From Candidatus Woesearchaeota archaeon CG10_big_fil_rev_8_21_14_0_10_37_12 (lineage in GTDB: Archaea; Nanobdellota; Nanobdellia; Woesearchaeales; ARS49), in NCBI GenBank assembly GCA_002762795.1, contig PCYA01000012.1, forward strand, positions 54,066-118,065: DNA of 64,000 bases. The letters are read 5' to 3'. Each line of letters begins with the position of its first letter. Positions within the stretch are counted from its first letter, which is position 1. The notes under the pieces were generated by a model. That model did not search any database. It was not told the origin of the DNA and saw only the letters and a program-made list of their open reading frames with translations. The position numbers and the translations under genes are program-made. Shown here piece by piece: positions 23,560-62,130 of the stretch.

Positions 23560-23597
23560 TACAAAATGTTATAAAAAATATCTTTGGCTTAACATCT

Positions 23598-36431: not shown

Positions 36432-36434
36432 TCA

Positions 36435-37058
36435 ATGAGCAAAAAACAAACCGTATTAATTACAGCATTACTTGTATGCATTGTTTTCGCACTGGGAGTT
36501 ATAGTAGGCAATTCATTAACTCTCGATGATGCAGCAATATCAAAATTCATACGCCAATCAGAACTAAACTCAGAAAGTTTTCTTATAGAACAAGATTTAT
36601 TCCAAGAATTCGAGACAAGATGCCCACTTGCAGAAGAAAGACTAGCAGCATTAAGCTCTGATCTCTGGAAACTAGGAAAACTCCTTGAAACACCAGACTC
36701 AAAGACCACTCTTGGAGAAGAAACCTTTGATTATCTTAAACGCAAATACCACCTTCTACAAATCAGAGCATATACACTTCACTACAAACTATCAAAAGAC
36801 TGCTCTGGAGCAGCAAACGTCATACTTTACTATTTCAAAAAACAAGATGCGGCAAGCCAGCAACAGGGACAAATACTGGACGAGTTAGTAAACGAATATG
36901 ATTTACACATATTTGCCATAGAGCATAACTATTCTCCAGAACTGTCTTTCCTAGAAGAATATTATGATGTGAAGCAAGCCCCAACCATTATTGTCAACTT
37001 CCAACAAAAACTAACAAGCCTTTCAAACAAAGAACAAATCAAGGCAGTTCTCAAATGA
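36435..37058 (+). CDS. membrane-anchored protein with a conserved ~170-aa two-Cys module
   Basis: N-terminal TM. FDYLKRKYHLLQIRAY...KQAPTIIVN is homologous to the N-terminal part of the next gene. Confidence 0.5.
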   Translation: MSKKQTVLITALLVCIVFALGVIVGNSLTLDDAAISKFIRQSELNSESFLIEQDLFQEFETRCPLAEERLAALSSDLWKLGKLLETPDSKTTLGEETFDYLKRKYHLLQIRAYTLHYKLSKDCSGAANVILYYFKKQDAASQQQGQILDELVNEYDLHIFAIEHNYSPELSFLEEYYDVKQAPTIIVNFQQKLTSLSNKEQIKAVLK

Positions 37059-39181
37059 AACAAAATAAAATAATTTGGCAATCACTCTTTCTTACGATAC
37101 TGATTTTTGCTGCAGGCATACTTATTAATCACGCACTTGATTATTATAGAATATCAACAATTACAAAAGTTATGACTGAGCATGACCTTAACACAGAAGC
37201 ATATCAAACAGAGCATTTTTTTGCAAAAACATTTCAAGAAGAAAGCTGTAATATCATGACGACCCGAGTAGCACAACTCAAAGAACAAGTAAGAAAAGTA
37301 GGGGAAGACCTCGGCACATATTCAAGATTCAGCATCTTCAAAAAAAAAGATTATGACTACCTCAAAAGAAAATACTTTCTGCTTCAGTTAAGATTCCTAG
37401 CTCTTGTCCAGGAAGTAAATAAAGAATGCAACAAACCATACTTGCCAATACTATTCTTCTATGAAATAGACCAAGATGACAGCGAAAAACAAGGATATGT
37501 GCTGCAACAATTAAGCAAAGAGTACGAGCAACAAATAATCATTCTTACCTTGGACAAAAATTACAAAGACGAACCGCTTGTACAACTCTTAGCACAAACT
37601 TATAATATAACACGAGCACCAACAATAATCCTTGAAAACACAGTTTACTCAGGATTAACTTATACAGGACAGCTTAACCAAACAATTATTGATTACTTAC
37701 GCAGACCAGATCCATATGCACAAGAACTTGATTTTAGTTTTACTCCAAAAGCAGCAGGAATTAACATAACATTACTCATTGAACAAATGGAAAATATAGC
37801 AAAAAATGAAACTGTGGATCCTTTTGCACGAGGAGACGCAACACTTATTCTTGGCAGATTAACGAATAAAAAAAGAATATGTGACAGCTTACAATTTTAT
37901 GATTTAGTTAATGCACGGAACCATGAAGAACAAGCACTTATTCATGAAACAAGCGCATCACTTGGATGCGGAAGAAACAGAAACACATTCCTACGCGCAG
38001 CAGCAAAAGAATGGAAACTTGCAGGCAACGCATACCGAGCTGATCTATTGGAGAAATTAGCAAACGGGCAAAGATTAAATCTTAAATTTGACCAACAAAC
38101 TATCAATGCAAATAATACTGTAATAAGCGGTTACAGAACATCAATCACGCCAATTCTTCCAGAAAATGCAACAACAGTAACAATTGGAAATACTACAATA
38201 ACACTCAGTTCAGGAGATATTCTTATTTCTCAAACAGACAGAGTGTACAGAGACTGGCTTGGAGGACAAATTGCCAATCCTTACGGTCCTGAAATTTTAG
38301 TTACATTCTCAGAACGATTGAAATATGATGAAACAGAATTGTTACCAGAAATCGGATGGCACGAAGGAGCACGAACAAAAGACATTAAAAAAGCTATTAA
38401 CATAACACATATCCCTGCAGTCGGAACATTGGTTGCAAAAAAAGGAAACTCATGGTATGCATCAGATGAACAAGGAATTTTTAGATTCGAAGTTCCAATT
38501 GATAAACTAATGTATCCAACAACAAGATTCTTAAGATCAGACATTGCAGTAATAATTGATTCTCACGGAGTCAACATGTTAGTTGAACAAGCAGTGCGCT
38601 ACAATGCAACTGTTGTTTTGAGTGATTGTGATCATCCAGGAAAAGTTTACGCTGCAAAATACTTAAGTGAGAAAAACATTTCAGTTATCTGCTACCCAGA
38701 CAAATACATCTATTTAGCAATCGGGCACAATTTATCTTTAATAGGAAGCCCACCAACAACACTTGGAAATGAAACAATAACTTTAGGAGGAAGACCAATA
38801 CAAATAACAACATCTGATATTATTCTTGCAGTTAATTCAACATCAGAACAATACGCATTATGGTATTACCAAACACCAACATCGTACTTTGAAGTAATTG
38901 GAGATGCAGTTCCGATTAACATACAATATTATCAATTAACAGACTTTAACCAAATGCAAAACGCAACAAAATATGCACGATCAATTAACGCAAACATTAT
39001 TGCCACGCGTGTTTTCAACAGCAACGATTACTATGCATTAACCATTTGGCTCCAAGAAAGACCAGAAAATAAAGCAATACTCTTCCACACAGCAAGTTAT
39101 CCATATGGACAGAAATTATTTAATGAATACGTAAATCAAACAAGCTTTGATGATCCGAATCCGGTGTTTGGTGAGCAGTAA
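37055..39181 (+). CDS. large membrane-anchored extracellular protein, rich in N-x-S/T sequons
   Basis: 4-nt overlap with the upstream gene and an N-terminal TM. It carries the same YDYLKRKYFLLQLRF...TRAPTIILEN module. By my count there are about 15 N-x-S/T sequons. Confidence 0.55.
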   Translation: MKQNKIIWQSLFLTILIFAAGILINHALDYYRISTITKVMTEHDLNTEAYQTEHFFAKTFQEESCNIMTTRVAQLKEQVRKVGEDLGTYSRFSIFKKKDYDYLKRKYFLLQLRFLALVQEVNKECNKPYLPILFFYEIDQDDSEKQGYVLQQLSKEYEQQIIILTLDKNYKDEPLVQLLAQTYNITRAPTIILENTVYSGLTYTGQLNQTIIDYLRRPDPYAQELDFSFTPKAAGINITLLIEQMENIAKNETVDPFARGDATLILGRLTNKKRICDSLQFYDLVNARNHEEQALIHETSASLGCGRNRNTFLRAAAKEWKLAGNAYRADLLEKLANGQRLNLKFDQQTINANNTVISGYRTSITPILPENATTVTIGNTTITLSSGDILISQTDRVYRDWLGGQIANPYGPEILVTFSERLKYDETELLPEIGWHEGARTKDIKKAINITHIPAVGTLVAKKGNSWYASDEQGIFRFEVPIDKLMYPTTRFLRSDIAVIIDSHGVNMLVEQAVRYNATVVLSDCDHPGKVYAAKYLSEKNISVICYPDKYIYLAIGHNLSLIGSPPTTLGNETITLGGRPIQITTSDIILAVNSTSEQYALWYYQTPTSYFEVIGDAVPINIQYYQLTDFNQMQNATKYARSINANIIATRVFNSNDYYALTIWLQERPENKAILFHTASYPYGQKLFNEYVNQTSFDDPNPVFGEQ

Positions 39182-46290: not shown

Positions 46291-47733
46291 ATGCCACTAA
46301 AAATATACAACACACTAACAAGAAAAAAAGAAACATTCAAACCTGTTAACGACGAGCTTGTGAGAATGTACACTTGCGGACCAACAGTTTACAACTATGC
46401 ACACATAGGGAATTTCAGAACTTACCTCTTTGAAGACTTGCTCAGAAGATGGCTAAAGTACAAGGGATACAAAGTAAAACAAGTGATGAACCTTACAGAC
46501 GTAGATGACAAAACAATCAGAGACAGCCAAAAAGAAGGAAAAACTCTCAAAGAATTCACAGAATTCTACTCTCAGGCGTTCTTTGAAGATGTTGATGCAT
46601 TAAACATTGAACGAGCAGAAGAATACCCCAAAGCAACAGAACACATCAATGAAATGATAACAATGATCAAACTACTCCTCCAAAAAGAACTTGCGTACAA
46701 AACAGAAGACGGAATTTATTTCTCAATAAATAAATTTAAAACATACGGAGAACTTGCGCACGTAGATACAACACAACTCAAAGCAGGTGCATCAGGGAGA
46801 ATACGCGCAGATGAATACGAAAAAGACAACGTAGCAGATTTTGTATTATGGAAGTTCTGGGACGAAAACGACGGAGCTGTCTTTTGGGAAATGGAATTAG
46901 GAAAAGGAAGACCAGGATGGCACATTGAATGTTCAGCAATGAGCGCAAAACATCTAACAAAAGCATTTCAAAACTCGACATTTTACCCTGACAAATTTGA
47001 AACAATAGACGTACACACAGGAGGAGTAGACAACCTGTTCCCCCACCATCAAGACGAAGTAGCACAAACAGAAGGAATAGTAAACAAACAATTCTCAAAA
47101 TACTGGATGCACTCAGAACATTTATTGGTTGATGGCAAAAAAATGGCAAAATCAACAGGAAACTTCTATACACTCAGAGACCTTGCAACCAAAGGACACA
47201 ACCCAATAGCCATACGATATCTATTGCTATCTGCACATTACAGACAAAAACTCAACTTTACCTTTGAAAGCCTCGAAGCTGCAGCAACAGCAGTCCAAAG
47301 AATAAACGATTTCGTTCTACGATTAGAAGAAGCAACTGGAAATAAAGATCACAAAGAAATAACAAGAATAATTAACCGTGCACAAAAAGAATTTGAAAAA
47401 GCATTAGATGATGATCTTGAAATAAGCAGAGCACTCGCAGCAGTGTTTGAGCTTATGAATGAAATAAACAAATTTCTGCAAGATACATCATTAAGCCAAA
47501 AAGATGCAAAACAAGTTATCGCATTTATGAAAACTGCTGATTCAATACTAGGAATATTGACACAACAAGAACAACTAACACCAGAAATACAAAAATTAAT
47601 AGATGAACGAGAACGCGCCAGACAAATCAAAAATTGGTCACGTGCTGATGAAATACGAGACGAATTAGCACAAAAAGGAATAGCAGTAGAGGATACACCA
47701 CATGGACAACGCTGGAAAAAAATTCTTTCTTAA
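46291..47733 (+). CDS. cysS: cysteinyl-tRNA synthetase
   Basis: CGPTVYNYAHIGNFRT (HIGH region) and KMAKSTGN (KMSKS). GAGGT lies 9 nt upstream. Confidence 0.95.
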   Translation: MPLKIYNTLTRKKETFKPVNDELVRMYTCGPTVYNYAHIGNFRTYLFEDLLRRWLKYKGYKVKQVMNLTDVDDKTIRDSQKEGKTLKEFTEFYSQAFFEDVDALNIERAEEYPKATEHINEMITMIKLLLQKELAYKTEDGIYFSINKFKTYGELAHVDTTQLKAGASGRIRADEYEKDNVADFVLWKFWDENDGAVFWEMELGKGRPGWHIECSAMSAKHLTKAFQNSTFYPDKFETIDVHTGGVDNLFPHHQDEVAQTEGIVNKQFSKYWMHSEHLLVDGKKMAKSTGNFYTLRDLATKGHNPIAIRYLLLSAHYRQKLNFTFESLEAAATAVQRINDFVLRLEEATGNKDHKEITRIINRAQKEFEKALDDDLEISRALAAVFELMNEINKFLQDTSLSQKDAKQVIAFMKTADSILGILTQQEQLTPEIQKLIDERERARQIKNWSRADEIRDELAQKGIAVEDTPHGQRWKKILS

Positions 47734-49062: not shown

Positions 49063-50088
49063 TTATTTTTTCTCTGATTTAAGTTGATTGTAAATTCCAT
49101 CACTAAACTGTTTCCAATAATGAACTTTATCCTGAACCAATAAATCATAATGAACAATATACGGACCAATATCTTTTTTGAACAACTCTATGCTATCATT
49201 TAATTCTTTTGGATTGCGTGCATTAAGATAAAGCAACAAATCGTAATTTCCTAACGTGTTCCCTGCATAAAAAATATTTCTGAGTTGTTGAAAAGGTTTT
49301 TTTCTAATGTTTAAAGGAGTATCTTGAATTAACCTGACAAGAATATAGTATGTTACAAATCCAAGCTCAGAAAGATTTGGAATACCTCCAAAACTTAATA
49401 TTATTTTATTTTTAATAAGATTATTGATTTTTCTTTTAACTGTTTGTCTATCTATTTTTAACATTTTAGACATACTAATCAGAGATTCATTTGGATTGTC
49501 TGCTAGCACTTTAAGAATTTCAACTTCATAACTTGTTGGAGAATATATATTAAATTCTCTATCAACAGGAAATTTTCGCGTAGTAAGCATACTACTGAAT
49601 GAATGGTCGGATTTTTTCTCGAATTTAGTTCCTAAATCCAAAACTGGATTAAGCTGAGTAAATTCAAAATCTGAGATGTGCGTGAGCATAATGTAATCTT
49701 TTACTTTATTATTACATAATACAAACAACTCTTGACGTATTTTATCCAAATGAAAACTATTAGTTGCATCAACAATTATTTGAATGTCAAAACGACCTAT
49801 GAACGTGTTTATCCACATTACAAACTCGTGTTTTCTTAAGAGATCATAGATTTTTTCTTTGTTATCAAGACCTTCTTCAAATTGTAATAACAAATGATAT
49901 CTTGTGAAACCTAGCTTTCTAGCATCAATAAAAAGAACATATTGGCTTAGAACATCTGCTTTTTCTAACTGTTTTATTTTATACGCAACGGTATCTTTTG
50001 AAACATTAAGAGCTTTTGCTAAAGTTGTATGGGCTATTCTGCAATTCTGCGCCAACACCTCCATTATTTGCAAGTCCCTTTTATCCAT
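49063..50088 (-). CDS. tandem-duplicated Lrp/AsnC-type regulator (two HTH plus two ligand-domain repeats)
   Basis: The first repeat is DLQIMEVLAQNCRIAHTTLAKALNVSKDTVAYKIKQL and the second is EVEILKVLADNPNESLISMSKMLKIDRQTVKRKINNL. TATA-like TTTATATAG lies ~27 nt upstream of the ATG at 50088. Confidence 0.7.
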   Translation of the reverse strand: MDKRDLQIMEVLAQNCRIAHTTLAKALNVSKDTVAYKIKQLEKADVLSQYVLFIDARKLGFTRYHLLLQFEEGLDNKEKIYDLLRKHEFVMWINTFIGRFDIQIIVDATNSFHLDKIRQELFVLCNNKVKDYIMLTHISDFEFTQLNPVLDLGTKFEKKSDHSFSSMLTTRKFPVDREFNIYSPTSYEVEILKVLADNPNESLISMSKMLKIDRQTVKRKINNLIKNKIILSFGGIPNLSELGFVTYYILVRLIQDTPLNIRKKPFQQLRNIFYAGNTLGNYDLLLYLNARNPKELNDSIELFKKDIGPYIVHYDLLVQDKVHYWKQFSDGIYNQLKSEKK

Positions 50089-50193
50089 ATTTCGCATAAT
50101 GTTGTTTTTACTATATAAATATGCTACTTTTTTCTTATTTTGTATTGAATTATTTATTATATTGTTTTATCTTTATTTTTCTTAGTGATAACA

Positions 50194-50859
50194 ATGAAAA
50201 TACAAGCGACGCAAGGAGAACTATTTGACAACAGCAAAAAACTACAAAAAAACAGTGGAGCAGCGATAATATGGATGAGTGTTGGAAACAGTTACTTCAA
50301 AAGAGAAACCATTACTCAACTTATTAAATTTGCTTCAACCAACTTTTCAAAAGTATTTGTATTAATGCCTGACAAACCAGCTGTACACACATACAAAGCA
50401 ATAGGCTATTCACAAAATAAAGCAGAGAAAAAAGCCAGATTAACTGGCAATAACCTAAAAAATCACGCTCTGCACGCTATTCAAACTACAAAAACAAATA
50501 ACACGTACATTATTGATTGGCAAACTGAGATATCGACAAAAAATATTTATCAACAGGAATTGAAAAAAATTCATGATTTATATGAAACAAATGCTTTATT
50601 CAGACAAAAAGTTCGTAGAACAACTTGTGAAGTACTCGAAGGAAAACTAAAACCTGACGTAACTTTAACTGCTGCTATTAATGAAGGAACACACTATTTG
50701 CTTAGCGAAATAGCTTTTCTTTCAGCAAGCCCAAAAATATTAAAAATAAACAGCACAATTTACATATATCACAAAAAATGGGAAATCTATGAACAATTCA
50801 TTAAAGGAACTTTCACAGGATTGCCAAGAAATAATTTAGGATTTTTAGTTGTTAAATAA
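50194..50859 (+). CDS. tRNA-dependent cyclodipeptide synthase (CDPS), NYH-type
   Basis: IIWMSVGNSYF compares with GISxGNSYF around the catalytic Ser. KAEKKAR is present, HYLLSEIAFL matches the Y..E pair and IYIYHKKW matches the YH pair. Size ~220 aa. All recalled from AlbC/YvmC/Rv2275. Confidence 0.8.
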   Translation: MKIQATQGELFDNSKKLQKNSGAAIIWMSVGNSYFKRETITQLIKFASTNFSKVFVLMPDKPAVHTYKAIGYSQNKAEKKARLTGNNLKNHALHAIQTTKTNNTYIIDWQTEISTKNIYQQELKKIHDLYETNALFRQKVRRTTCEVLEGKLKPDVTLTAAINEGTHYLLSEIAFLSASPKILKINSTIYIYHKKWEIYEQFIKGTFTGLPRNNLGFLVVK

Positions 50860-50886: not shown

Positions 50887-51585
50887 TTACTCAGCTAGTG
50901 CTGCATCAATAACCTGCTTAAATGCTGCGAACGGTTGCGCACCAGACACTAAACGGCCGTTGATAATAAAGCCAGGAGTTCCCTGAACACCAGCAGCACT
51001 ACCATCAGCCATATCCTTTTGCACTTCATCAGCAAACTGGTCAGAATCAAGACAACTGTTAAAATCAGCGGTTTTCAAACCAAGATCTTTTGCGAACTTT
51101 TTGAACGAATCAACACCGCCAGCTACACCTGTTTCAAACAGTTTATCATGCATTTCCCAGTATTTGCCCTGTTCACCAGCACACTCAGCAGCCTCAGCAG
51201 CTTTTTGCGCTTGCGGATGGAAAGGCAAAGGATAATCTCTGTACACCAACTTTAACTTGCCGGTTTCAATGTATTCTGACTCGATTTGCGGCAATGTTTG
51301 CTCAAAAAATCGCGTACAGAACGGACATTCAAAGTCGCTAAACTCAACCATCGTTACAGGTGCATCTTCATTGCCTTTTACTGCATCATCATCAACAAGA
51401 GCAGCCATATCAATATCAGCAGGTTCTGGTACACTAGGAGCAGACGGTGTAGGTGTTGGCTGCGAAGGAGCAGCAACAGGAGCACCAAGCTTATCACTAA
51501 TAACGGTTAACTGCACAACAAGCACAATCAACAAAACTGTTTGCAGCCCAAGAAGCCACAATTTAACATCATTACTTTTTTTCAT
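50887..51585 (-). CDS. DsbA-like thioredoxin-fold oxidoreductase, membrane-anchored
   Basis: FECPFC active site, an N-terminal TM and a Pro/Ala/Ser linker. GGAGGGTGA lies 5 nt upstream of the ATG at 51585. Confidence 0.8.
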   Translation of the reverse strand: MKKSNDVKLWLLGLQTVLLIVLVVQLTVISDKLGAPVAAPSQPTPTPSAPSVPEPADIDMAALVDDDAVKGNEDAPVTMVEFSDFECPFCTRFFEQTLPQIESEYIETGKLKLVYRDYPLPFHPQAQKAAEAAECAGEQGKYWEMHDKLFETGVAGGVDSFKKFAKDLGLKTADFNSCLDSDQFADEVQKDMADGSAAGVQGTPGFIINGRLVSGAQPFAAFKQVIDAALAE

Positions 51586-51700
51586 ATATTCACCCTCCAA
51601 TACACCCAAAAAACAGTATTCTCCTTTTAAAAGATTTATGTACTGTAAAGGCAGGAAAGTCCAGTTCCAATAACTTTTTTTTTCTCGATGGATTATTAAT

Positions 51701-51790: not shown

Positions 51791-51895
51791 CAGATGATTT
51801 GCGCTTTGATGTTGTTCGAACCATATGTTTTGTTGTCTCCCTTGAGTGATTTAGAAAGGAAAGAGTTATATAAGTCCTATTTAATCTTAAACGCT

Positions 51896-53296
51896 ATGAG
51901 CAAAGAATCACCGCTTGATGGATTAGTTGCAGATTTCTTACCAGAAAATGTTGGAACGTGGGCTTACAAGCGACCTGACGGAGCTACTTTACCATACGCA
52001 AAAGCAGTTCATTATTCACGAGGACAAGAAGGAAGTTCATTAACTCCAGAACAGCTTGATGAGAGAAATAACAGAGCTGCAAGAAGCGCACAAATAATTG
52101 GTGATGAGCAACTGTTACGCGCTAATGGACTATCAGTAGGACTTGCTGCAAAACTTGAAAGTGCAGATAAGGGACATACTCATCTTACATTCAAACCACC
52201 AGTGCCAATGGATGATGCACTCAGCGGAGAACAACCACCAATAACAGGACAATACCCATACGTAACATTTCCTGCACAAGGAGAAGTTCCATACGCAATT
52301 GTAGTAATGTATGAAGAAGGCGAACAATTTGGAACAGCACAAGAAATAGCAACAATAGAACTTGATAAAGACACTTGGTATTTGAGTGCGTCCCAACTAC
52401 CTGAAGACACAAAACACAAAAAAGAAATCGAACAAGCAGTAAACATATTCAGAGAACGAGGCGATAGGTGTTTACACCCCGGAACATATAAACTCAACAT
52501 TACTGTAGAAAGATCACCAGCAATAGCAATACGCATAGACGGGTACAGACCACTAACAGCACAACTATTATACGACGGACCAATAAGACAAGAAATACCA
52601 ATCGGGGGTTTACACGAAATTATCAGCAGCAGTATTGCTAAATATGTTTCAGGTATTAAAATTCCAAACGAAATGAGCCCACTCGAACAAAAACCACCAA
52701 AACAACAAACAGAAACTCCAAAACCAGAAAAAAAATTAAGACCAAAATATGCAGAAATGTCACTTGTATTGCCCAGCGATGAACCAAACAAGCCATTCGG
52801 AATGTCACAAGCAACACTTGAATATCAAGGAAGAGAAGACAGAGCAGACTTAATATACGTAGCAACAAGACGCACAGACTCAGTCGGAGAAACTGATGCA
52901 AACCCTAATTTTGGATTAGTAGAAGTACAAATAAGCCAATTTTCCAAAGTAACAAACGTAGATATTGATTACAAACCAAAAAAAATAGAAGAGCCAGAAC
53001 CACGAGAAACTACAGGTACTCCGTTAACGGGTAGCTTTTCAAGCGACAGGCCAAGATCATTTCCTTTGATGGGAGGAGGTTCTTATTCAGGTGGAAACTC
53101 TTATTTAGGCGGAGGAGGATATAGCGGTCTTCGTTCAGCTGGAGGTATTTCAGGGAATATGGGCACAAGAGGCGAAGATTTTGGAGGGGGATTTGATTGG
53201 GATAGTTTAGGCAGTCCATCAACATCACCACCATTAGTATCAACAGGCAGAACAAAACTTGGAACACCAAGAACAGGAAGTGTTTCACAAAAGTAA
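51896..53296 (+). CDS. hypothetical protein (no recognisable domain) with a Gly/Ser/Tyr-rich C-terminal tail
   Basis: Start moved to MSKESPLDG because TATA-like GTTATATAAG (51864-51873) lies ~27 nt upstream. No TM segment. The tail reads GGGSYSGGNSYLGGGGYSGLRSAGG. Confidence 0.55.
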   Translation: MSKESPLDGLVADFLPENVGTWAYKRPDGATLPYAKAVHYSRGQEGSSLTPEQLDERNNRAARSAQIIGDEQLLRANGLSVGLAAKLESADKGHTHLTFKPPVPMDDALSGEQPPITGQYPYVTFPAQGEVPYAIVVMYEEGEQFGTAQEIATIELDKDTWYLSASQLPEDTKHKKEIEQAVNIFRERGDRCLHPGTYKLNITVERSPAIAIRIDGYRPLTAQLLYDGPIRQEIPIGGLHEIISSSIAKYVSGIKIPNEMSPLEQKPPKQQTETPKPEKKLRPKYAEMSLVLPSDEPNKPFGMSQATLEYQGREDRADLIYVATRRTDSVGETDANPNFGLVEVQISQFSKVTNVDIDYKPKKIEEPEPRETTGTPLTGSFSSDRPRSFPLMGGGSYSGGNSYLGGGGYSGLRSAGGISGNMGTRGEDFGGGFDWDSLGSPSTSPPLVSTGRTKLGTPRTGSVSQK

Positions 53297-53535: not shown

Positions 53536-56028
53536 ATGACAGAAAAATATAACCCACACGAAGCAGAAATTAAATGGATGAACTACTGGGAAAAACAAAA
53601 CACATACAAATTTGATCCAAAAAGCAACAAGCCAGTTTACGCAATAGACACACCACCACCAACAGTATCAGGCAAAATGCACGTTGGACATTCATTCAGC
53701 TACTCACGTACAGACTTCATTGCACGATTCCACAGAATGATCGGCAAAAACGTATTCTATCCATTCGGAACAGATGACAATGGCTTAGCAACAGAAAGAC
53801 TCGTAGAAAAACTCAAAGGCGTAAACAGCAAAAAAATGAAAAGAGAAGAATTCGTAAAACTCGTACTCGAAACACTCAAAGAAATCACACCAGAATTTAT
53901 CAGCGATTGGAAACGCATAGGCGTTTGTGCAGATTATTCAATTTATTACTCTACTATTGATAATCACTGCCAAAAACTAAGCCAACTAAGCTTTATAGAT
54001 CTATACAAAAAAGGCAGAGCATACCGCGCAGAAAAACCAATCATCTTTTGCCCAAACTGCAAAACAGTCATCGCACAAGTAGAAATGGAAGACAAAGAAC
54101 TCCAAAGCACACTCAACTACATCAAAGCAAAACTCGAAGACGGCAGATACATCATCTTTGCAACAACAAGACCAGAACTCATGCCGGGCAATATTGGGTA
54201 TAGCATAGACGAGAAAGGCAAATATGTTGATGTAAAAAAAGAAAATGAAACATGGATTATTGCAGCAGACGCATACGAAAAATTCAAAGACGAATGGCAA
54301 TTGGAACAACCAAGCAAACCATACCTAGGCAAAGAATTAATTGGCAAAAAAGTAACAACACCAATCATTAACAAAACATTCACAATAACACACGACCAAA
54401 GCGTAAAAACAAACTACGGAACAGGAATAGTATACTTTTGCAGCTACGGAGGACTAGACTGCGTAGAATGGTTAACAAGACACAAAGAAGCAGAACCCAT
54501 ACACATCATGGGATTAGACGGAGTATACAATGAAAAATGCGGCGAATACCAAGGAATGAACACGCAAGAAGCACGATCAGCAATACTTGAAGACCTTGAA
54601 CAACTCAGAGTACTTATCAAAAAAGAAAAAATCAATCATACAGTAAACGTACACGAACGATGTGGAATAGAAATAGAATACATCAGCACAGCACAATGGT
54701 TCATCAAAATACTTGACCTAAAAGATGATTTGCTGAAACGAGGAAATGAACTAAACTGGCATCCAGAACACATGAAAAACAGATACGACAACTGGACAAA
54801 AGGACTACACTGGGACTGGTGCATCAGCAGACAAAGACACTACGGAATACCAATACCAGTATGGTATCACAAAAAAACAGGAGAAGTACTCATAGCAGAC
54901 GAACAAAGCATACCAATAGACCCAACAACACACAAACCACCAAAACACCTAACAGAAAACCCAGATGATTACATCGGAGAAAAAGATGTATTGGATACGT
55001 GGGCAACAAGCAGCTTAACACCACAAATCGCTATTGAACTCATTAATGATGAACACATGAAGAAAAAATTATTCCCAATGGATGTACGACCACAAGCACA
55101 CGACATCATAACATTCTGGCTATTCAACACAGTAATCAAATCACACTTGCACTACAACAAACTACCATGGAAAGACACAATCATATCAGGCTGGGTATTA
55201 GACCCAAAAGGCAGAAAAATGAGCAAAAGCAAAGGCAACATTATCGACCCAAGAGAACAAATACAAAAATACTCAGCAGATGCACTTCGCTATGCCGCAG
55301 CAAACAGCAAATTAGGACAAGACAACCCCTACAAAGAACAAGAACTCACAGCAGGAATAAAATTAACTACCAAGTTATCGAATGCAAGCAAATTTGTGTT
55401 TATGAATTTAGAAGGATACGACTTCACAGGTAAAACAATAGATGTACTAGACAAATGGATTTTAACAAAGCTTGCAAAAACAATCCACGAAACAACAATA
55501 GCATTTGAAAACTACGATTACAGCAAAGCGCGCGCATTGGCAGATGAATTTTTCTGGCACGACTTCTGCGATTATTATTTAGAACTCGTTAAAGGAAGAA
55601 TCTATGAAGGCAATGCCGAGCATAAATCAAGCGCACAAGAAACACTCTACCACTGCATGTATGCTATTCTACGATTATACGCTCCAATCATACCATTCAT
55701 CACAGAAGAACTCTATCACAAACACTTCAAAACACAAGAACAAACTGATAGTATTCATTTAACCAGTTGGCCAACACAACCTGAAATACATGAAGACGCA
55801 GAAAAAATAGGAGATACTATAGTAACAATACTCGCAGACATACGCAAAAGAAAAACAGCAGCACAAAAAGGAATGAACGCACCAATCAAAAAACTAACCA
55901 TTGAAAGCAAACTTGACTTAAGTCTGGCATTGGATGACTTGAAAGCAGCAACTTGTGCAGAAACAATTGAAATAGGAAAAGCACAAGAAGAAATTAATGA
56001 AGGATTGAAGATTAGTGTTGAATTCTGA
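53536..56028 (+). CDS. valS: valyl-tRNA synthetase
   Basis: PPPTVSGKMHVGH (HIGH region) and KMSKSKGN. 830 aa. GAGGA lies 4 nt upstream. Confidence 0.95.
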   Translation: MTEKYNPHEAEIKWMNYWEKQNTYKFDPKSNKPVYAIDTPPPTVSGKMHVGHSFSYSRTDFIARFHRMIGKNVFYPFGTDDNGLATERLVEKLKGVNSKKMKREEFVKLVLETLKEITPEFISDWKRIGVCADYSIYYSTIDNHCQKLSQLSFIDLYKKGRAYRAEKPIIFCPNCKTVIAQVEMEDKELQSTLNYIKAKLEDGRYIIFATTRPELMPGNIGYSIDEKGKYVDVKKENETWIIAADAYEKFKDEWQLEQPSKPYLGKELIGKKVTTPIINKTFTITHDQSVKTNYGTGIVYFCSYGGLDCVEWLTRHKEAEPIHIMGLDGVYNEKCGEYQGMNTQEARSAILEDLEQLRVLIKKEKINHTVNVHERCGIEIEYISTAQWFIKILDLKDDLLKRGNELNWHPEHMKNRYDNWTKGLHWDWCISRQRHYGIPIPVWYHKKTGEVLIADEQSIPIDPTTHKPPKHLTENPDDYIGEKDVLDTWATSSLTPQIAIELINDEHMKKKLFPMDVRPQAHDIITFWLFNTVIKSHLHYNKLPWKDTIISGWVLDPKGRKMSKSKGNIIDPREQIQKYSADALRYAAANSKLGQDNPYKEQELTAGIKLTTKLSNASKFVFMNLEGYDFTGKTIDVLDKWILTKLAKTIHETTIAFENYDYSKARALADEFFWHDFCDYYLELVKGRIYEGNAEHKSSAQETLYHCMYAILRLYAPIIPFITEELYHKHFKTQEQTDSIHLTSWPTQPEIHEDAEKIGDTIVTILADIRKRKTAAQKGMNAPIKKLTIESKLDLSLALDDLKAATCAETIEIGKAQEEINEGLKISVEF

Positions 56029-58971: not shown

Positions 58972-59718
58972 TTACTTCTCATGACCGCCCAAATAAATTT
59001 TCTTAATCTTATCACTTTTCAAAATTTCTCTGCCGCCGTGCATTGCAACACGACCTTCTTCCAACACATAAATTTTATCCGCAAACTCACACGCAGCTTT
59101 TGCATTTTGCTCAACCATTAAAATAGCAGTGCCTTCATCACGAATCTCTTTTACTTTCTCAAACACTTCCTGCATTGTTTTTGGAGCCAAACCAAGAGAC
59201 GGTTCATCTAACAATAAAAGCTGAGGGTCTTGCATTAACCCTCTGCCCATTGCCAACATTTGCTGCTGGCCACCAGACAAAGAATATGCATTATCATATA
59301 ATTTTTTTCTTAACACAGGAAAATGACCAAGCACTTCATCCATTCTAGTGTTGATTAATTCTTTTTCTTTAGTCATAAAAGCGCCCATCTCAAGATTTTC
59401 TTTAACAGTTAAACCAGAAAATACTTGCCTGCCTTGCGGAACAATTGCAATACCCATCTTAATCCGGTCATGCGTTGGCAATTTTGTAATATCTTTGCCT
59501 TTGTACATAACTTTGCCTTTATACACATCACACAAATTAAACATTGACTTCAAGATGGTACTTTTTCCTGCACCATTTGGACCAATAATCAGCGTAATAT
59601 CACTCGGATTAATATCCATGTCAACACCAAACAAAATTTGCAACTTACCATAACCAGACTCAACACTACGAAGCTGCAAAAATTTACTAGTGTCCTTCAC
59701 TGATTTTTTCTTTGCCAT
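58972..59718 (-). CDS. livF: branched-chain amino acid ABC transporter ATP-binding protein LivF
   Basis: GPNGAGKST, LSGGQQQML and LLLLDEPS. Last gene in the canonical livHMGF order. Confidence 0.85.
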   Translation of the reverse strand: MAKKKSVKDTSKFLQLRSVESGYGKLQILFGVDMDINPSDITLIIGPNGAGKSTILKSMFNLCDVYKGKVMYKGKDITKLPTHDRIKMGIAIVPQGRQVFSGLTVKENLEMGAFMTKEKELINTRMDEVLGHFPVLRKKLYDNAYSLSGGQQQMLAMGRGLMQDPQLLLLDEPSLGLAPKTMQEVFEKVKEIRDEGTAILMVEQNAKAACEFADKIYVLEEGRVAMHGGREILKSDKIKKIYLGGHEK

Positions 59719-59719
59719 T

Positions 59720-60403
59720 TTACTTACCCAAATATGCCTCTAACACGCGCTTATCTTTTTGAACTTGCTTCGGAGTGCCCCTCATCAAAACTCTGCCTTC
59801 AGCCATAACAATAACTTCATCACTAATACTCATCACAAAATCCATATCGTGCTCAATAAACATAATTGTTTTTCCTTCTTTGTTTAACTGCTTTAAAATC
59901 TTCTTCAACTCTTGACGAACACTAGGATTCACACCTGCAGTTGGCTCGTCAAGCATTAACAACTCATGCGGGTGAAGCAAAGCTCTTGCAATTTCCAACA
60001 ACCGCATCTGACCATAACTCAACGCACTCCCTTTTGTATCAATTGGTAATTTAAATGCAACCTTCTCTAACACATCCCTGATTTCTTTTTCTGAACAAGG
60101 ACGAGAAATCGTCAAATTTTCTTTAACTGTCAAATTTTTGAATAACCTCGCTTGCTGAAACGTCCTACTAATTCCAACACGCGCAATCTTGTGCGTTGGA
60201 AGCCGAGTTATGTTTTCTTTTTTGAAATAAACAGAACCATCATCAGCACTAATAATATTACAAACTAAATTAAACATAGTTGTTTTCCCCGCACCATTTG
60301 GGCCAATAACACTTGTGATCTTACCTGGCTTAATATCAAAGGAACAATCCTTTACAGCATACACGCCACCAAAATGCTTTGCAAGATTCTTAACGCGTAT
60401 CAT
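59720..60403 (-). CDS. livG: branched-chain amino acid ABC transporter ATP-binding protein LivG
   Basis: GPNGAGKTT, LSYGQMRLL and LLMLDEPT. Confidence 0.85.
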   Translation of the reverse strand: MIRVKNLAKHFGGVYAVKDCSFDIKPGKITSVIGPNGAGKTTMFNLVCNIISADDGSVYFKKENITRLPTHKIARVGISRTFQQARLFKNLTVKENLTISRPCSEKEIRDVLEKVAFKLPIDTKGSALSYGQMRLLEIARALLHPHELLMLDEPTAGVNPSVRQELKKILKQLNKEGKTIMFIEHDMDFVMSISDEVIVMAEGRVLMRGTPKQVQKDKRVLEAYLGK

Positions 60404-61257
60404 GAAAAATCCACCTTCCCAAACAAACCTTTCGGCCTGTAAATTAATATGAGCAATAAGATCAGTGCAAAAATCATTTCCCGCATCGGACCAAGCACAG
60501 AACTTGGGAACCCAATAAATCTGAGGGGTTCAGGAATTAAGAACAAAACAATCGTACCAATAGCAGAACCTTTCACAGACGCAAGACCACCAACAATCAA
60601 CATACTAAACATCAAAATCAAATCATTAATGCCAAAAATAGATGGATCAATAAACGTAATGTAATGCGCAAACAAACCACCAGCAAAACCAGCAAACAAC
60701 GCAGAAAAACCCAACATCAACGCCTTATGTGCGAACGTATTCTTGCCAAGCATTTTCGCAGCAAGCTCATCATCACGAATTGCTTCACAAGTTAACCCAA
60801 ACCGCGATCTGGAGATGTACCACATCGCTAAATAGCTTACCACTGCAAGGACCACAACAACAAACAAAAACTCAGTGTTTCCTTTCACAATCTTAGGAAT
60901 GCCTGGAATGCCTAACGCGCCTCTTGTCACATCAGTCCAATTTCGCGCAACACTGCCGAGAATAAAAGTAAATCCTAATGTGGCTAAAGCGAGATAGTCA
61001 CCTTTTAATCGTGTTGTAGGCATTGCAAGAATAATGCCCATTACCATTGCAGCCAACGCTCCAAGAGGAATGCTAATCCATAACGAAACACCCTGCACAG
61101 CTAACAACGCACTCACATATGCACCAATACCAAAAAATCCAACATGACCAAGATTCAACAAGCCAGTGAAACCCACTGCGAGATTCAATGAAAAGGTTAC
61201 AATACTATAAATTCCTATGAGAATTGCCAAATGAATCACATAATTAATGAACGCCAT
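60400..61257 (-). CDS. livM: branched-chain amino acid ABC permease LivM
   Basis: GLLNLGHVGFFGIGAY is the typical LivM block. 4-nt overlap with livG. Confidence 0.85.
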   Translation of the reverse strand: MAFINYVIHLAILIGIYSIVTFSLNLAVGFTGLLNLGHVGFFGIGAYVSALLAVQGVSLWISIPLGALAAMVMGIILAMPTTRLKGDYLALATLGFTFILGSVARNWTDVTRGALGIPGIPKIVKGNTEFLFVVVVLAVVSYLAMWYISRSRFGLTCEAIRDDELAAKMLGKNTFAHKALMLGFSALFAGFAGGLFAHYITFIDPSIFGINDLILMFSMLIVGGLASVKGSAIGTIVLFLIPEPLRFIGFPSSVLGPMREMIFALILLLILIYRPKGLFGKVDFS

Positions 61258-62130
61258 TTATGCCTCCCTCACTTTCTTACCAAGCAAACCAGACGGTTTG
61301 AACAACAGGAAAATGAATAATAGTACAAATGCAATCGCATCTTTATAACCAGAAGGCAACCACCAAATACCAATGTTTTCTACTAAACCAAGAATAAACG
61401 AGCCCAATACTGCACCTGGAATACTTGCCAAGCTCCCAATAACTGCACCAGTAAATCCTTTGATTACTAATGAAACACCCATTTGAGGATAGAGATTCTG
61501 CTCGATACCTATTAACACGCCCGCAACACCTGCAAGAAAACTTCCAATAATAAACGTGTACGTGTAAATCTTCTCAGGATTAATGCCAACAGTCTGCGCA
61601 ACTTCTTTATTATCAGCAACAGCACGCATAGCCTTGCCAAGCTTTGTACACTTCATCAACCACCACAAAGCAAGCAAAAGCAAAATTGATACTACAATGA
61701 TAATAACCTGAATAAACGTAACTCTCGCACCAAGCGCATCAAACACAGGATTCACAGTAGGAACAGTCTTAACATCAGCACCCCAAATAGCAAGCACAGC
61801 AGCATTAATAAAAGTCATCAAAGCAATACTTGCAATCAACAACACTGCACTCGAAGCTTTAATCTTTCTCAACGGCTTGTACACAACCCAATTCATCACA
61901 GCACCAAACAAACTTGTCACCATAATAGCTAATACTACAGCAAGCCAAAAGTTAAGCCCAGCCATCACTGCAAAAGTATAAAGCAAATACGCACCTGTAG
62001 CAAGCACAGCACCATGCGCAAAATGCATAAACTTCGTCACACCATAAATTAACGAAAAGCCAGACGCAACTAACGCATAAATCGCCCCTGCAATAATCCC
62101 ATTCAAAATCAGTTGTGTTGCAATACTCAT
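61258..62130 (-). CDS. livH: branched-chain amino acid ABC permease LivH
   Basis: QLILNGIIAGAIYALVASGFSLIYGVTKFMHFAHG is the typical LivH N-terminus. Confidence 0.85.
   Translation of the reverse strand: MSIATQLILNGIIAGAIYALVASGFSLIYGVTKFMHFAHGAVLATGAYLLYTFAVMAGLNFWLAVVLAIMVTSLFGAVMNWVVYKPLRKIKASSAVLLIASIALMTFINAAVLAIWGADVKTVPTVNPVFDALGARVTFIQVIIIVVSILLLLALWWLMKCTKLGKAMRAVADNKEVAQTVGINPEKIYTYTFIIGSFLAGVAGVLIGIEQNLYPQMGVSLVIKGFTGAVIGSLASIPGAVLGSFILGLVENIGIWWLPSGYKDAIAFVLLFIFLLFKPSGLLGKKVREA

What the first reader, a model, noticed from the sequence alone, without database searches (positions are those of the whole stretch)
50098..50859. Cyclodipeptide synthase gene in an archaeal context, divergent from a tandem-Lrp regulator and with no obvious tailoring genes
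The 222-aa product shows the hallmark blocks I recall from characterised CDPSs (AlbC, YvmC, Rv2275):
- IIWMSVGNSYF, with the catalytic Ser and the N of the NYH subtype
- FSKVFVLMPDKPAVHTYKAIGYSQNKAEKKAR, comparable to [32 protein letters not shown] in YvmC
- HYLLSEIAFL, carrying the Y/E pair
- IYIYHKKW, carrying the YH pair

CDPSs hijack aminoacyl-tRNAs to make diketopiperazines. They are overwhelmingly bacterial, and archaeal examples are scarce.

The neighbours here are a 342-aa regulator built from two complete Lrp/AsnC repeats (divergent, 105-bp shared promoter region with two TATA-like boxes) and a membrane-anchored DsbA-like oxidoreductase. No cyclodipeptide oxidase, P450 or methyltransferase is adjacent, so the product may be an untailored cyclodipeptide with an unknown role.
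Basis: partly seen in the sequence, partly recalled or inferred. Interest (0 to 1): 0.72.

Follow-up and report, generated by a model that had tools for sequence, protein, structure and literature searches.

The report
Archaeal cyclodipeptide synthase with paired regulator
A tiny symbiotic-type archaeon (Woesearchaeota) carries a genuine cyclodipeptide synthase gene locked back-to-back with a fused double-Lrp regulator; the pair recurs in dozens of related archaea with no tailoring genes, so it is a real but uncharacterised small-molecule module of a known enzyme family.

Summary
Window 50194-50859 (+) encodes a 221-aa protein that passes the curated CDPS models, and its AlphaFold model matches solved CDPS structures (TM 0.82-0.85). 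It keeps all catalytic and NYH-signature residues. The host is a DPANN archaeon: its RadA is 72-77% identical to Woesearchaeota MAGs.

- **Conserved pair.** The divergent 341-aa gene is a fused double Lrp (two wHTH+RAM units). It sits next to a CDPS in about 27 of 32 non-redundant regulator loci.
- **Co-inheritance.** The two proteins' divergences track each other (r=0.86). The regulator is more conserved (66%) than the enzyme (45%).
- **Promoter cassette.** The 105-bp spacer holds two inverted TATA boxes at fixed spacing around a conserved central block. It survives even where the cargo gene is not a CDPS.
- **No third gene.** No tailoring or export gene is shared among 17 archaeal loci.
- **Unusual pocket.** Trp replaces the near-universal pocket Gly35, a trait shared by a coherent subgroup.

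The product, the regulator's ligand and its binding site are inferred, not shown. Verdict: a new member of the CDPS family in a barely described archaeal clade, with a new regulatory pairing. Interest is moderate.

The parts
50194..50859 (+). Cyclodipeptide synthase gene (221 aa plus stop), NYH subtype, with Trp27 at the AlbC-Gly35 pocket position
   Evidence: Pfam PF16715 131.6 bits and TIGR04539 146.4 bits. AF2 model pLDDT 95; Foldseek matches to YvmC, BtCDPS and 6ez3 at TM 0.82-0.85. Catalytic and pocket residues were mapped on verified AlbC numbering. The start at ATG 50194 is supported by homologue N-termini and by the identical database protein P0001.
49063..50088 (-). Fused double Lrp/AsnC (FFRP-type) regulator, 341 aa: wHTH-RAM, a ~40-aa linker, then wHTH-RAM. 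The ORF can be extended to ATG 50097 (344 aa), but that start is probably not used.
   Evidence: HTH_AsnC-type 46.2 bits and HTH_24 58.2 bits with 2 stretches. PDB sequence hits: PH0061 and LrpA on residues 1-111, FL11 on 191-311. The AF2 model (pLDDT 88.6) shows two complete units. Foldseek: the halves match archaeal Lrps (target TM 0.82-0.84) and the whole protein matches the fused NirDL. All homologues start at MDKKDL/MNKKDL (A3). The regulator TATA box is 24 nt from ATG 50088 but only 15 nt from ATG 50097.
50089..50193 (.). 105-bp bidirectional promoter cassette shared by the two genes
   Evidence: Alignment of 13 loci (A4). Across 62 ungapped columns, mean pairwise identity is 0.656 against 0.362 +/- 0.006 for shuffles. 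GC is 17%. The cassette is also kept in L075, L088 and L089, where the cargo gene is not a CDPS.
50112..50119 (-). TATA box of the regulator gene (reads TTTATATA on the - strand), 24 nt upstream of ATG 50088. This implies a leaderless or near-leaderless transcript (inference).
   Evidence: Columns 30-36 of A4 are identical in 12 or 13 of the 13 sequences. Coordinates. It forms an inverted repeat with the CDPS TATA box.
50124..50137 (.). Conserved central block (window CTACTTTTTTCTTA; clade consensus CnCATTnTTCTTA) between the two TATA boxes. Candidate operator of the double-Lrp protein (inference).
   Evidence: In A4 columns 41-54, C44, T46 and A54 are invariant and C51 and T52 are present in 12 of 13 sequences. 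There are no indels between the TATA boxes in 13 loci.
50153..50164 (+). TATA box of the CDPS gene (TTTATTATA, followed by a conserved TTG), 32 nt upstream of ATG 50194
   Evidence: In A4 columns 70-81, 8 of 12 columns are invariant. Coordinates.

Best explanation
This is a functional, stand-alone cyclodipeptide synthase of a Woesearchaeota (DPANN) archaeon. It is expressed from a conserved two-gene cassette together with its own transcription factor.

**Enzyme mechanism (by homology with AlbC and YvmC).** Two aminoacyl-tRNAs are diverted from translation.
1. The first aminoacyl group is transferred to Ser29, with its side chain in pocket P1.
2. The second aminoacyl group, held in pocket P2, attacks to give a dipeptidyl-enzyme.
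3. Tyr168, Glu172 and Tyr192 assist catalysis and the final intramolecular cyclisation to a 2,5-diketopiperazine.

The product is released untailored. Trp27 replaces the usual pocket Gly, so P1 is probably narrowed. The product is therefore likely to contain a small residue (Gly or Ala). This is a low-confidence prediction.

**Regulation (inferred).** The divergent 341-aa protein is a covalent Lrp 'dimer'. It probably binds the conserved block between the two back-to-back TATA boxes. From there it would control both its own leaderless transcript and the CDPS promoter.

Its two RAM domains most likely sense amino acids, in feast/famine logic. Draining aminoacyl-tRNAs into a secreted cyclodipeptide would then be coupled to amino-acid supply.

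**What is shown.** Family membership, catalytic residues, fold, archaeal host, conserved synteny, co-divergence of the pair, and promoter conservation.

**What is inferred.** Product identity, operator, ligand, the sign of regulation, and the biological role (host or community interaction).
For: **Enzyme.** Curated HMMs are passed by wide margins. The AF2 model has pLDDT 95 and pTM 0.91. The top 40+ Foldseek hits are all CDPS structures. S37/N40/Y178/E182/Y202/H203 are all kept after alignment to an AlbC sequence verified against 3oqv.

**Trp subgroup.** Trp at position 35 recurs in 13 of 132 representative clusters. These share the P1 motif [IL]W[LIM]P.F[LV]Y and have intact catalytic residues, so the substitution is selected rather than decay.

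**Host.** RadA is 72-77% identical to Woesearchaeota MAGs. The same gene is found on contigs up to 784 kb. No viral relative was found.

**Pairing.** The regulator lies divergently beside a CDPS in:
- 12 of 16 GTDB regulator loci;
- 17 of 19 evaluable metagenome loci.

Across 23 unique loci, CDPS and regulator distances correlate with r=0.86, Mantel p<=0.0005.

**Promoter.** Spacer identity is 0.656 against 0.362 for shuffles. The two TATA boxes keep a fixed spacing and flank a conserved central block.

**Regulator nature.** Both HTH units match AsnC-type DNA-binding motifs above Pfam cut-offs. The halves match archaeal Lrp/FFRP structures.

**No third partner.** No tailoring or export gene is conserved among the loci.
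Against: - No member of this DPANN clade has been characterised, and its pocket motifs (P1 IWLPQFLY, P2 TEVGKWE) match none of the specificity motifs listed in Table 2 of PMC5816076. The product is therefore unknown.
- Trp in place of Gly35 could impair rather than retune P1.
- The regulator is more conserved than the enzyme. It also occurs without an adjacent CDPS in L075, L088, L089, L175 and L191, with other small cargo genes behind the same promoter cassette. It is therefore not a CDPS-specific regulator in the strict sense.
- CDPSs of the clade also occur without it, in L005 and L012.
- No clear palindromic Lrp-type operator could be defined in the AT-rich central block.
- DNA binding, the ligand and the direction of control are untested.
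Confidence: 0.7

Rival explanations
1. **Signal synthase and receptor pair.** The CDPS makes a diketopiperazine signal. The double-Lrp protein is its receptor, with the RAM domains binding the cyclodipeptide. Together they form a positive or negative autoregulatory loop, comparable in logic to LuxI/LuxR, used for DPANN-DPANN or DPANN-host communication.
For: - The divergent two-gene architecture has a shared, highly conserved bidirectional promoter.
- The pair co-diverges strongly.
- No tailoring or export genes are conserved, so the plain, diffusible cyclodipeptide is the end product.
- RAM domains are small-molecule sensors (established knowledge of Lrp/FFRP proteins).
- Regulator copies without a CDPS would resemble 'solo' receptors.
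Against: - CDPS pocket residues vary widely between loci: position 35 is G, W, A or F, and position 119 is Q, D, K, E or T. The regulator meanwhile stays about 66% identical. This is unexpected if receptor and product co-specify.
- In genomes where the cargo slot holds a membrane protein or lipoprotein, no CDPS of this clade was detected by the genome scan.
- No ligand evidence exists.
Confidence: 0.15
2. **General regulator with a variable cargo slot.** The double-Lrp protein is a lineage-wide general regulator carrying its own autoregulated promoter cassette. The gene in the divergent slot is interchangeable cargo. The CDPS is simply the commonest occupant, and its expression may be only loosely controlled by the regulator.
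For: - The same promoter cassette drives a 134-aa membrane protein in L075 and L089, and a 145-aa lipoprotein in L088.
- The regulator is far more conserved than the CDPS.
- 113 regulator clusters are found across Woesearchaeota and Nanoarchaeota.
Against: - About 84% of regulator loci carry the CDPS.
- The two genes' divergences are tightly correlated.
- The TATA box on the cargo side and its spacing are as conserved as those on the regulator side. This argues that the cargo promoter is part of the regulated unit.
Confidence: 0.3
3. **The double-Lrp protein is not a transcription factor.** Instead it is an enzyme or binding protein built on the Lrp fold, like the fused siroheme decarboxylase NirDL, and acts on the cyclodipeptide as a cryptic tailoring or carrier partner.
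For: The best full-length structural match is NirDL (4ch7/4czc), with Foldseek E=4e-15 and TM 0.60-0.65. It is the only solved fused double-Lrp architecture. There are weak NCBIfam hits to AhbA/AhbB.
Against: - AhbA and AhbB score about 25 bits against cut-offs of 125-140, with 12% identity to NirDL.
- Both HTH units pass DNA-binding HTH models. Each half matches bona fide archaeal regulators better (target TM 0.82-0.84, about 20% identity).
- The protein occurs without a CDPS.
- The conserved promoter cassette fits autoregulation.
Confidence: 0.05
4. **The CDPS homologue no longer makes a cyclodipeptide.** With P1 plugged by Trp27, it could be inactive. Or it could have drifted to another aminoacyl-tRNA-dependent role, such as deacylation or aminoacyl transfer to another acceptor.
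For: - Gly35 is the majority residue: 95 of 132 representatives.
- Pocket motifs match no known specificity group.
- Degenerate copies exist in the clade: L087 has Cys for the catalytic Ser and Gln for Glu, and L185 and L186 are split.
Against: - All six catalytic and signature residues are intact in the window copy.
- The Trp variant forms a conserved subgroup of 13 clusters with a coherent P1 motif.
- The AF2 model is confident and canonical.
- A characterised CDPS with a bulky Phe at the same position is active and makes cGE (Table 2 of PMC5816076).
Confidence: 0.1

Closest known systems
NYH-subfamily cyclodipeptide synthases: YvmC (B. licheniformis, 3oqh), BtCDPS (6ztu), Shae-CDPS (6ez3), AlbC (3oqv), Rv2275 (2x9q)
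   Same: Same fold (TM 0.72-0.85), same length class, and the same catalytic Ser/Tyr/Glu/Tyr plus the N..YH signature. The presumed ping-pong aminoacyl-tRNA mechanism is also the same.
   Different: - Sequence identity is only 19-24%.
- The host is a DPANN archaeon rather than Firmicutes or Actinobacteria.
- Trp sits at the Gly35 pocket position.
- The pocket motifs are unlike any characterised specificity group.
- There is no P450, CDO or methyltransferase partner.
Pulcherrimin locus of Bacillus (yvmC-cypX with the MarR-type regulator YvmB and the transporter YvmA; described in PMC11610984)
   Same: A CDPS gene placed next to a dedicated winged-helix regulator that binds the CDPS promoter region.
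   Different: Here the regulator is a fused double Lrp/AsnC protein rather than MarR. No tailoring P450 or MFS exporter is conserved. The promoter cassette is archaeal, based on TATA boxes.
Archaeal Lrp/AsnC feast/famine regulatory proteins (FL11/PH1519, PH0061, LrpA, Ss-LrpB)
   Same: Each half has the wHTH plus RAM (beta-alpha-beta-beta-alpha-beta) unit, at about 20% identity and target TM 0.82-0.84. Divergent, autoregulated promoters are typical of the family (established knowledge).
   Different: Two complete units are fused in one 341-aa chain. Solved members are ~150-aa single units that dimerise. No 13-bp abcde[AAT/ATT]edcba palindrome, as described in the abstract of PMC2715240 (listed), could be identified in the spacer.
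Siroheme decarboxylase NirDL / AhbA-AhbB
   Same: It is the only solved protein with the same fused double-Lrp architecture, and it is the best full-length Foldseek hit.
   Different: It is an enzyme of heme d1 / alternative heme biosynthesis. Identity is 12%, and the equivalog HMMs are failed by about 100 bits. The HTH motifs here are canonical.
CPR/Patescibacteria-type CDPSs, including the characterised Parcubacteria RAAC4_OD1_1 CDPS (7qb8; cHP/cHE, XYP type)
   Same: These are also CDPSs of ultra-small, probably symbiotic organisms. Uncharacterised CPR/Melainabacteria CDPSs are the next-closest relatives, at 36-43% identity.
   Different: The characterised Parcubacteria enzyme is XYP type and structurally more distant (TM ~0.64). 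A 91%-supported NJ split separates a grouping that contains the DPANN clade (together with L038, L086, L004 and the actinobacterial/AlbC sequences) from the CPR-type clade; support for the DPANN clade itself is only 38%. The CPR-type clade lacks the double-Lrp partner. Some related representatives (taxonomy not determined) carry a C-terminal SBP_bac_3 fusion instead.

Membership tests
Cyclodipeptide synthase (CDPS; PF16715 / TIGR04539) | Scores above the curated family thresholds over the full domain length | tested here: met
   PF16715 scores 131.6 bits against 27, covering profile positions 10-219 of 220. TIGR04539 scores 146.4 bits against 45.
Cyclodipeptide synthase (CDPS; PF16715 / TIGR04539) | Class-Ic aaRS-like Rossmann fold of about 220-240 aa | tested here: met
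   AF2 model pLDDT 95, pTM 0.91. The 50 listed Foldseek PDB hits are all CDPS structures, with TM 0.82-0.85 to YvmC, BtCDPS and 6ez3.
Cyclodipeptide synthase (CDPS; PF16715 / TIGR04539) | Catalytic Ser37 plus Tyr178, Glu182 and Tyr202 (AlbC numbering) | tested here: met
   These correspond to S29, Y168, E172 and Y192 after MAFFT alignment with an AlbC sequence verified as identical to 3oqv_A. They are invariant or nearly invariant in the 28-sequence alignment A1.
Cyclodipeptide synthase (CDPS; PF16715 / TIGR04539) | Consumes two aminoacyl-tRNAs and releases a cyclodipeptide | not testable with these tools
   This needs expression plus LC-MS, or an in-vitro assay with aa-tRNAs.
NYH subfamily of CDPSs | Asn40, Tyr202 and His203 (AlbC numbering) | tested here: met
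   N32, Y192 and H193. The subfamily definition is taken from PMC5816076.
NYH subfamily of CDPSs | Pocket motifs matching a known specificity group (P1 positions 33-35-65-67-119-185-186-200; P2 positions 152-155-156-159-204-206-207) | tested here: not met
   P1 is IWLPQFLY and P2 is TEVGKWE. No match was found in Table 2 of PMC5816076. The specificity is therefore unpredictable. This does not affect family membership.
Lrp/AsnC (FFRP) transcription factors | N-terminal AsnC-type winged HTH | tested here: met
   HTH_AsnC-type scores 46.2 bits against 27. HTH_24 scores 58.2 bits against 21.9, with two stretches. AF2 shows three-helix HTH units at residues 6-46 and 189-229.
Lrp/AsnC (FFRP) transcription factors | C-terminal RAM (beta-alpha-beta-beta-alpha-beta) ligand-binding domain | tested here: met
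   Pfam PF01037 is below cut-off in the window protein (17.9 against 25), but it is listed for many homologues. AF2 shows the beta-alpha-beta-beta-alpha-beta unit twice. The halves superpose on Lrp structures at target TM 0.82-0.84.
Lrp/AsnC (FFRP) transcription factors | Single ~150-aa unit that assembles non-covalently into dimers or octamers | tested here: not met
   Two complete units are fused in one 341-aa chain with a ~40-aa linker. It is a tandem variant of the family.
Lrp/AsnC (FFRP) transcription factors | Sequence-specific DNA binding modulated by a small ligand | not testable with these tools
   Only indirect support is available: a conserved central block between the two TATA boxes.
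Siroheme decarboxylase NirDL / AhbAB | Equivalog-level sequence match to AhbA or AhbB | tested here: not met
   NF040707 and NF040708 score about 25 bits against cut-offs of 125 and 140. Identity to NirDL is 12%.
Siroheme decarboxylase NirDL / AhbAB | Fused or heterodimeric double Lrp-like architecture | tested here: met
   The best full-length Foldseek hit is 4ch7, E=4e-15, TM 0.60-0.65. The resemblance is in architecture only.

The most novel reading that the evidence does not exclude
The CDPS and the fused double-Lrp protein form a diketopiperazine signal-synthase and receptor pair. This would be an archaeal, aminoacyl-tRNA-fed analogue of LuxI/LuxR. Genome-reduced DPANN archaea would use it to sense their own density or to talk to their hosts. 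Regulator copies that lack a CDPS would act as 'solo' receptors that eavesdrop on the signal.
Probability: 0.15. Interest if true: 0.85.

Novelty: new member of a known kind. Interest (0 to 1): 0.52.

Why it matters
DPANN archaea have genomes of about 1 Mb and are thought to depend on hosts. Any conserved small-molecule biosynthesis gene they retain is therefore a candidate mediator of that interaction.

This locus gives a compact, directly testable handle:
- one 666-bp gene to express for the product;
- one 341-aa regulator and a 105-bp spacer for DNA- and ligand-binding assays.

It also has value for CDPS enzymology:
- It adds an archaeal NYH-type clade absent from the 2018 family census.
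- It provides a natural Gly35-to-Trp pocket variant, which bears on specificity prediction.
- It provides a naturally fused double-Lrp protein, an architecture solved so far only for an enzyme (NirDL), not for a regulator.

If the pair proves to be a signalling unit, it would be the first genetically defined chemical-communication module in DPANN archaea.

Tried and rejected
- **Word-indexed homologue search with the CDPS.** It returned only 3 relatives, which understates the family. The exhaustive phmmer run found 559.
- **The search for related loci with the 28-sequence alignment.** It failed because no conserved stretch was available. A 6-sequence alignment worked.
- **tRNA and Rfam scans of the window.** Nothing was found, so there is no dedicated tRNA or riboswitch near the CDPS.
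- **Recent bacterial transfer or contamination.** Rejected. The gene lies on long archaeal contigs. GC (0.31) and GC3 (0.23) are only slightly below those of neighbouring genes. The partner regulator is confined to Woesearchaeota/Nanoarchaeota-type MAGs.
- **Virus-borne origin.** No relative was found in IMG/VR.
- **Conserved tailoring or export partner.** All-against-all clustering of ORFs from 17 archaeal loci found none. The DsbA-like neighbour has a homologue in only one other locus (L035), about 4 kb from the CDPS there.
- **CysRS and ValRS flanking the CDPS as a functional link.** This arrangement is not conserved in other loci.
- **Palindromic Lrp operator in the spacer.** Only the TATA-TATA inverted repeat was detected. 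Dyads seen by eye in single loci (for example TATTC-N4-GAATA in L006) are not consistent across the alignment. No operator is claimed.
- **First NJ tree with Biopython.** It timed out and was redone with a numpy implementation. Support for a monophyletic DPANN clade is weak (38%).
- **Literature searches.** Searches for CDPS together with Woesearchaeota, DPANN or Nanoarchaeota found no description of this module.
Full report
**1. Observation**

The ORF listing shows an ORF at 50185..50859 (+), 224 aa from a GTG, between a 344-aa ORF on the minus strand (49063..50097) and a 240-aa ORF on the minus strand (50887..51609).

The ATG at 50194 gives 221 aa. That form is identical to a database protein found on contigs up to 784 kb (P0001). 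Its N-terminus, MKIQ, aligns with the M-x-I-Q starts of homologues (A1). The finding's start coordinate, 50098, falls in the spacer.

**2. Identity of the enzyme**

- Pfam CDPS (PF16715) scores 131.6 bits against a gathering score of 27, E=4.7e-38, over profile positions 10-219 of 220.
- NCBIfam TIGR04539 scores 146.4 bits against 45.
- By sequence, the nearest solved structures are YvmC (E=1.7e-15), BtCDPS, a cLL synthase, AlbC and Rv2275.
- An AlphaFold2 model built on 28 relatives has pLDDT 95 and pTM 0.91. The 50 listed Foldseek PDB hits are all CDPS structures, with TM 0.82-0.85 to YvmC, BtCDPS and 6ez3.

I wrote the AlbC sequence from memory and checked it. It is identical to 3oqv_A over residues 2-239. 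Aligned to it, the window protein keeps S37, N40, Y178, E182, Y202 and H203, which are S29, N32, Y168, E172, Y192 and H193 here. It is therefore a complete NYH-type CDPS.

**3. Pockets**

Pocket positions were taken from PMC5816076. P1 is IWLPQFLY and P2 is TEVGKWE. Neither matches any specificity motif listed in Table 2 of that paper.

The most unusual feature is Trp27 at the position of AlbC Gly35.
- Gly occupies that position in 95 of 132 representative relatives.
- Trp recurs in 13 of them, which share the P1 motif [IL]W[LIM]P.F[LV]Y and intact catalytic residues.
- It is therefore a selected subtype, not decay.

In Table 2 of PMC5816076, the CDPS with a bulky Phe at this position accommodates Gly in P1 (cGE). 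By analogy, I predict with low confidence a small first substrate.

**4. Host**

The window encodes:
- RadA (Rad51 family, 319 bits);
- an RFC-type clamp-loader subunit;
- an RPA-like OB-fold protein;
- a Nip7-like PUA protein;
- a NOL1/NOP2/Sun methyltransferase.

RadA is 72-77% identical to Woesearchaeota/Nanoarchaeota MAGs. GC is 36% throughout. The CDPS (GC 0.31) and the regulator (0.29) are only slightly more AT-rich than their neighbours. The gene is resident in a DPANN archaeal genome.

**5. Relatives**

An exhaustive phmmer search against 1.84 billion representatives gives 559 hits at E<=1e-3 and 56 at E<=1e-30. The best is only 46% identical.

In GTDB species representatives:
- the closest are DPANN MAGs (Woesearchaeota, Nanoarchaeota, Parvarchaeum; 42-48%);
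- next come CPR/Patescibacteria, Melainabacteria/Obscuribacterales and Bdellovibrionota (36-43%);
- then Actinobacteria (24-28%).

A bootstrapped NJ tree separates, with 91% support, a grouping that contains the DPANN sequences (together with L038, L086, L004 and the actinobacterial/AlbC sequences) from the CPR-type clade. Support for the DPANN clade itself is only 38%. No relative was found in IMG/VR viral contigs.

**6. The partner gene**

The divergent ORF has two AsnC-type winged HTH motifs (HTH_AsnC-type 46.2 bits; HTH_24 58.2 bits with two stretches). By sequence it matches single-unit archaeal Lrps: PH0061 and LrpA on residues 1-111, and FL11/PH1519 on residues 191-311.

AlphaFold2 (pLDDT 88.6) shows wHTH-RAM, a ~40-residue low-confidence linker, then wHTH-RAM. 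In Foldseek, the halves superpose on Lrp/FFRP regulators (target TM 0.82-0.84, about 20% identity). The best whole-chain hit is the fused siroheme decarboxylase NirDL (TM 0.60-0.65, 12% identity). The AhbA/AhbB equivalog models are failed by about 100 bits. I therefore read it as a covalently fused Lrp dimer acting as a transcription factor. An enzyme role is a minor rival.

Homologues all begin MDKKDL or MNKKDL (A3). The regulator's TATA box is 24 nt from ATG 50088 but only 15 nt from ATG 50097. The likely product is therefore 341 aa from a leaderless mRNA (inference).

**7. The pair is conserved**

tblastn found the regulator divergently, 100-190 bp upstream of the CDPS, in seven distinct archaeal loci. 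Regulator identity was 56-68%, higher than the 42-48% of the CDPS.

Starting from the regulator instead:
- 113 homologous clusters exist, all about 340 aa; the source names that are given are Woesearchaeota or Nanoarchaeota-type MAGs;
- 12 of 16 GTDB loci carry a CDPS in the divergent slot;
- 17 of 19 metagenome loci with enough upstream sequence carry one.

This comes to roughly 27 of 32 after removing duplicates and one chimeric contig. One of these loci, L170, comes from the same sample as the window but from a different population.

Over 23 unique loci, mean identity is 44.8% for the CDPS and 65.6% for the regulator. Their pairwise distances correlate with r=0.86, Mantel p<=0.0005. The pair is inherited and diverges as a unit.

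All-against-all clustering of neighbouring ORFs in 17 archaeal loci found no third shared gene family. The absence of tailoring and export genes is therefore a property of the module, not of this window alone.

**8. The spacer**

An alignment of 13 spacers (A4) has 62 ungapped columns. Mean pairwise identity is 0.656, against 0.362 +/- 0.006 for composition-preserving shuffles. This holds although the flanking CDPS proteins are only about 45% identical.

The conserved blocks are:
- the regulator TATA box (window 50112-50119, TTTATATA on the minus strand);
- a central block (window 50124-50137; clade consensus CnCATTnTTCTTA, with C44, T46 and A54 invariant);
- the CDPS TATA box (window 50153-50164, TTTATTATATTG, 8 of 12 columns invariant).

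The two boxes are inverted copies at a fixed spacing, with 38 nt between the arms of the repeat. I infer that the central block is the regulator's operator, but I could not define a consistent Lrp-type palindrome.

**9. The cassette outlives the CDPS**

In L075, L088 and L089 the regulator and the whole promoter cassette are intact, but the divergent gene is different. It is a 134-aa membrane protein in L075 and L089 (alike at the N-terminus by eye), and a 145-aa lipoprotein-like ORF in L088.

Conversely, clade CDPSs occur without the double Lrp:
- L005 lacks it;
- L012 (Parvarchaeum) instead has a divergent, membrane-anchored wHTH protein.

The regulator is thus not strictly CDPS-specific. 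This fact, together with the variable CDPS pockets set against an invariant regulator, makes amino-acid (feast/famine) sensing more likely than sensing of the enzyme's own product. The signal-receptor reading is not excluded, and I give it 0.15.

**10. Literature**

The 2018 census of 765 CDPSs reports a single sequence from a metagenomic archaeon, of XYP type. It puts NYH enzymes at 72% Actinobacteria, 19% Firmicutes and 8.5% Proteobacteria (PMC5816076). Full-text searches for CDPS together with Woesearchaeota, DPANN or Nanoarchaeota found no description of this clade or of the Lrp pairing.

The closest described arrangement is the Bacillus yvmC-cypX locus with its MarR-type regulator YvmB (PMC11610984). 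That locus has a P450 and an exporter.

**11. Verdict**

The enzyme is a full member of the CDPS family (NYH type), so it is a new member of a known kind.

What is new:
- an archaeal (DPANN) clade;
- the Trp35 pocket subtype;
- the tight, co-evolving pairing with a fused double-Lrp regulator through a conserved bidirectional archaeal promoter cassette.

The product, ligand, operator and biological role are inferred. Interest is moderate (about 0.5). It would be high only if the pair proves to be a chemical-communication module.

Noticed in passing
P0036, P0048, P0054, P0057, P0068, P0130, P0153 (relatives); L057 3069-4514: Several related CDPSs (444-500 aa) carry a C-terminal SBP_bac_3 domain, the amino-acid-binding periplasmic-protein fold, fused to the synthase. 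A Woesearchaeota MAG locus (L057) has a 482-aa CDPS ORF of the CPR-type clade; its C-terminal part was not scanned. This may be a built-in amino-acid sensor, parallel to the Lrp pairing in the DPANN clade.
   Followed up: partly
L088 4444-4881 (-); L012 2460-2960 (+): A small lipoprotein-like ORF appears in two places (41% identity over 109 aa, E=1e-20; motif DGIF[DE]xGTYP[FY]R...MSR). In L088 it occupies the CDPS slot next to the double-Lrp regulator. In Parvarchaeum L012 it lies 38 bp downstream of a CDPS that lacks that regulator. It is absent from the window. It may be an alternative or additional cargo of the same circuit.
   Followed up: partly
L075 4506-4907 (-); L089 4549-4953 (-): A ~134-aa small membrane protein, with similar N-termini by eye in the two loci, replaces the CDPS as the divergent cargo behind the same conserved promoter cassette.
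   Followed up: partly
L085 (OZ252091.1, 'Gammaproteobacteria' chromosome); L086 (JBIKWF01, 'Bdellovibrionota' MAG): The archaeal double-Lrp gene occurs in records labelled as bacterial. In L085 the flanking ORFs look bacterial by eye, and the regulator is merged into a 557-aa ORF. This suggests an assembly chimera or mis-binning rather than transfer.
   Followed up: partly
L006, L079, L095-L102 and others (GTDB 'MAG TPA_asm: uncultured Methanosarcinales archaeon'): Many MAGs titled 'uncultured Methanosarcinales archaeon' carry RadA, the double-Lrp gene and the CDPS at the same identity levels as Woesearchaeota MAGs. The record titles look like mislabels of DPANN genomes.
   Followed up: no
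L087 4187-4990 (-); L185 39-854 (-); L186 2-362 (-): Some CDPS copies beside the regulator look degenerate. L087 has Cys for the catalytic Ser and Gln for Glu182. L185 and L186 are split into two reading frames. These may be decaying copies or sequencing errors.
   Followed up: no
window 46291-47733 (+) and 53536-56028 (+): The cysteinyl-tRNA and valyl-tRNA synthetase genes flank the CDPS module within about 3-4 kb. This is suggestive for an aminoacyl-tRNA-consuming enzyme, but the arrangement is not conserved in any other locus.
   Followed up: yes
window 51794-53296 (+); window 33625-39181 (+): A 500-aa ORF next to the DsbA-like gene has no Pfam hit and a Gly/Ser-rich, low-complexity C-terminus. 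Three further large ORFs (486, 455 and 708 aa) also have no Pfam hit.
   Followed up: no
window 23460-25725 (+); window 58972-62130 (-): There are two tandem Peripla_BP_6 (branched-chain amino-acid-binding type) genes. Elsewhere in the window lies a Liv-like ABC transporter set: two ABC_tran genes plus one called BPD_transp_2 permease gene that runs off the end of locus L001, with a further 290-aa ORF downstream (61258-62130) that was not scanned. This amino-acid uptake capacity may be relevant to an Lrp-type, amino-acid-sensing regulator.
   Followed up: no
L170 (Ga0066639_10015165): The same metagenome sample as the window's contig holds a second, distinct population with the same module, CDPS plus double Lrp. 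Its regulator is 68% identical to the window's.
   Followed up: partly
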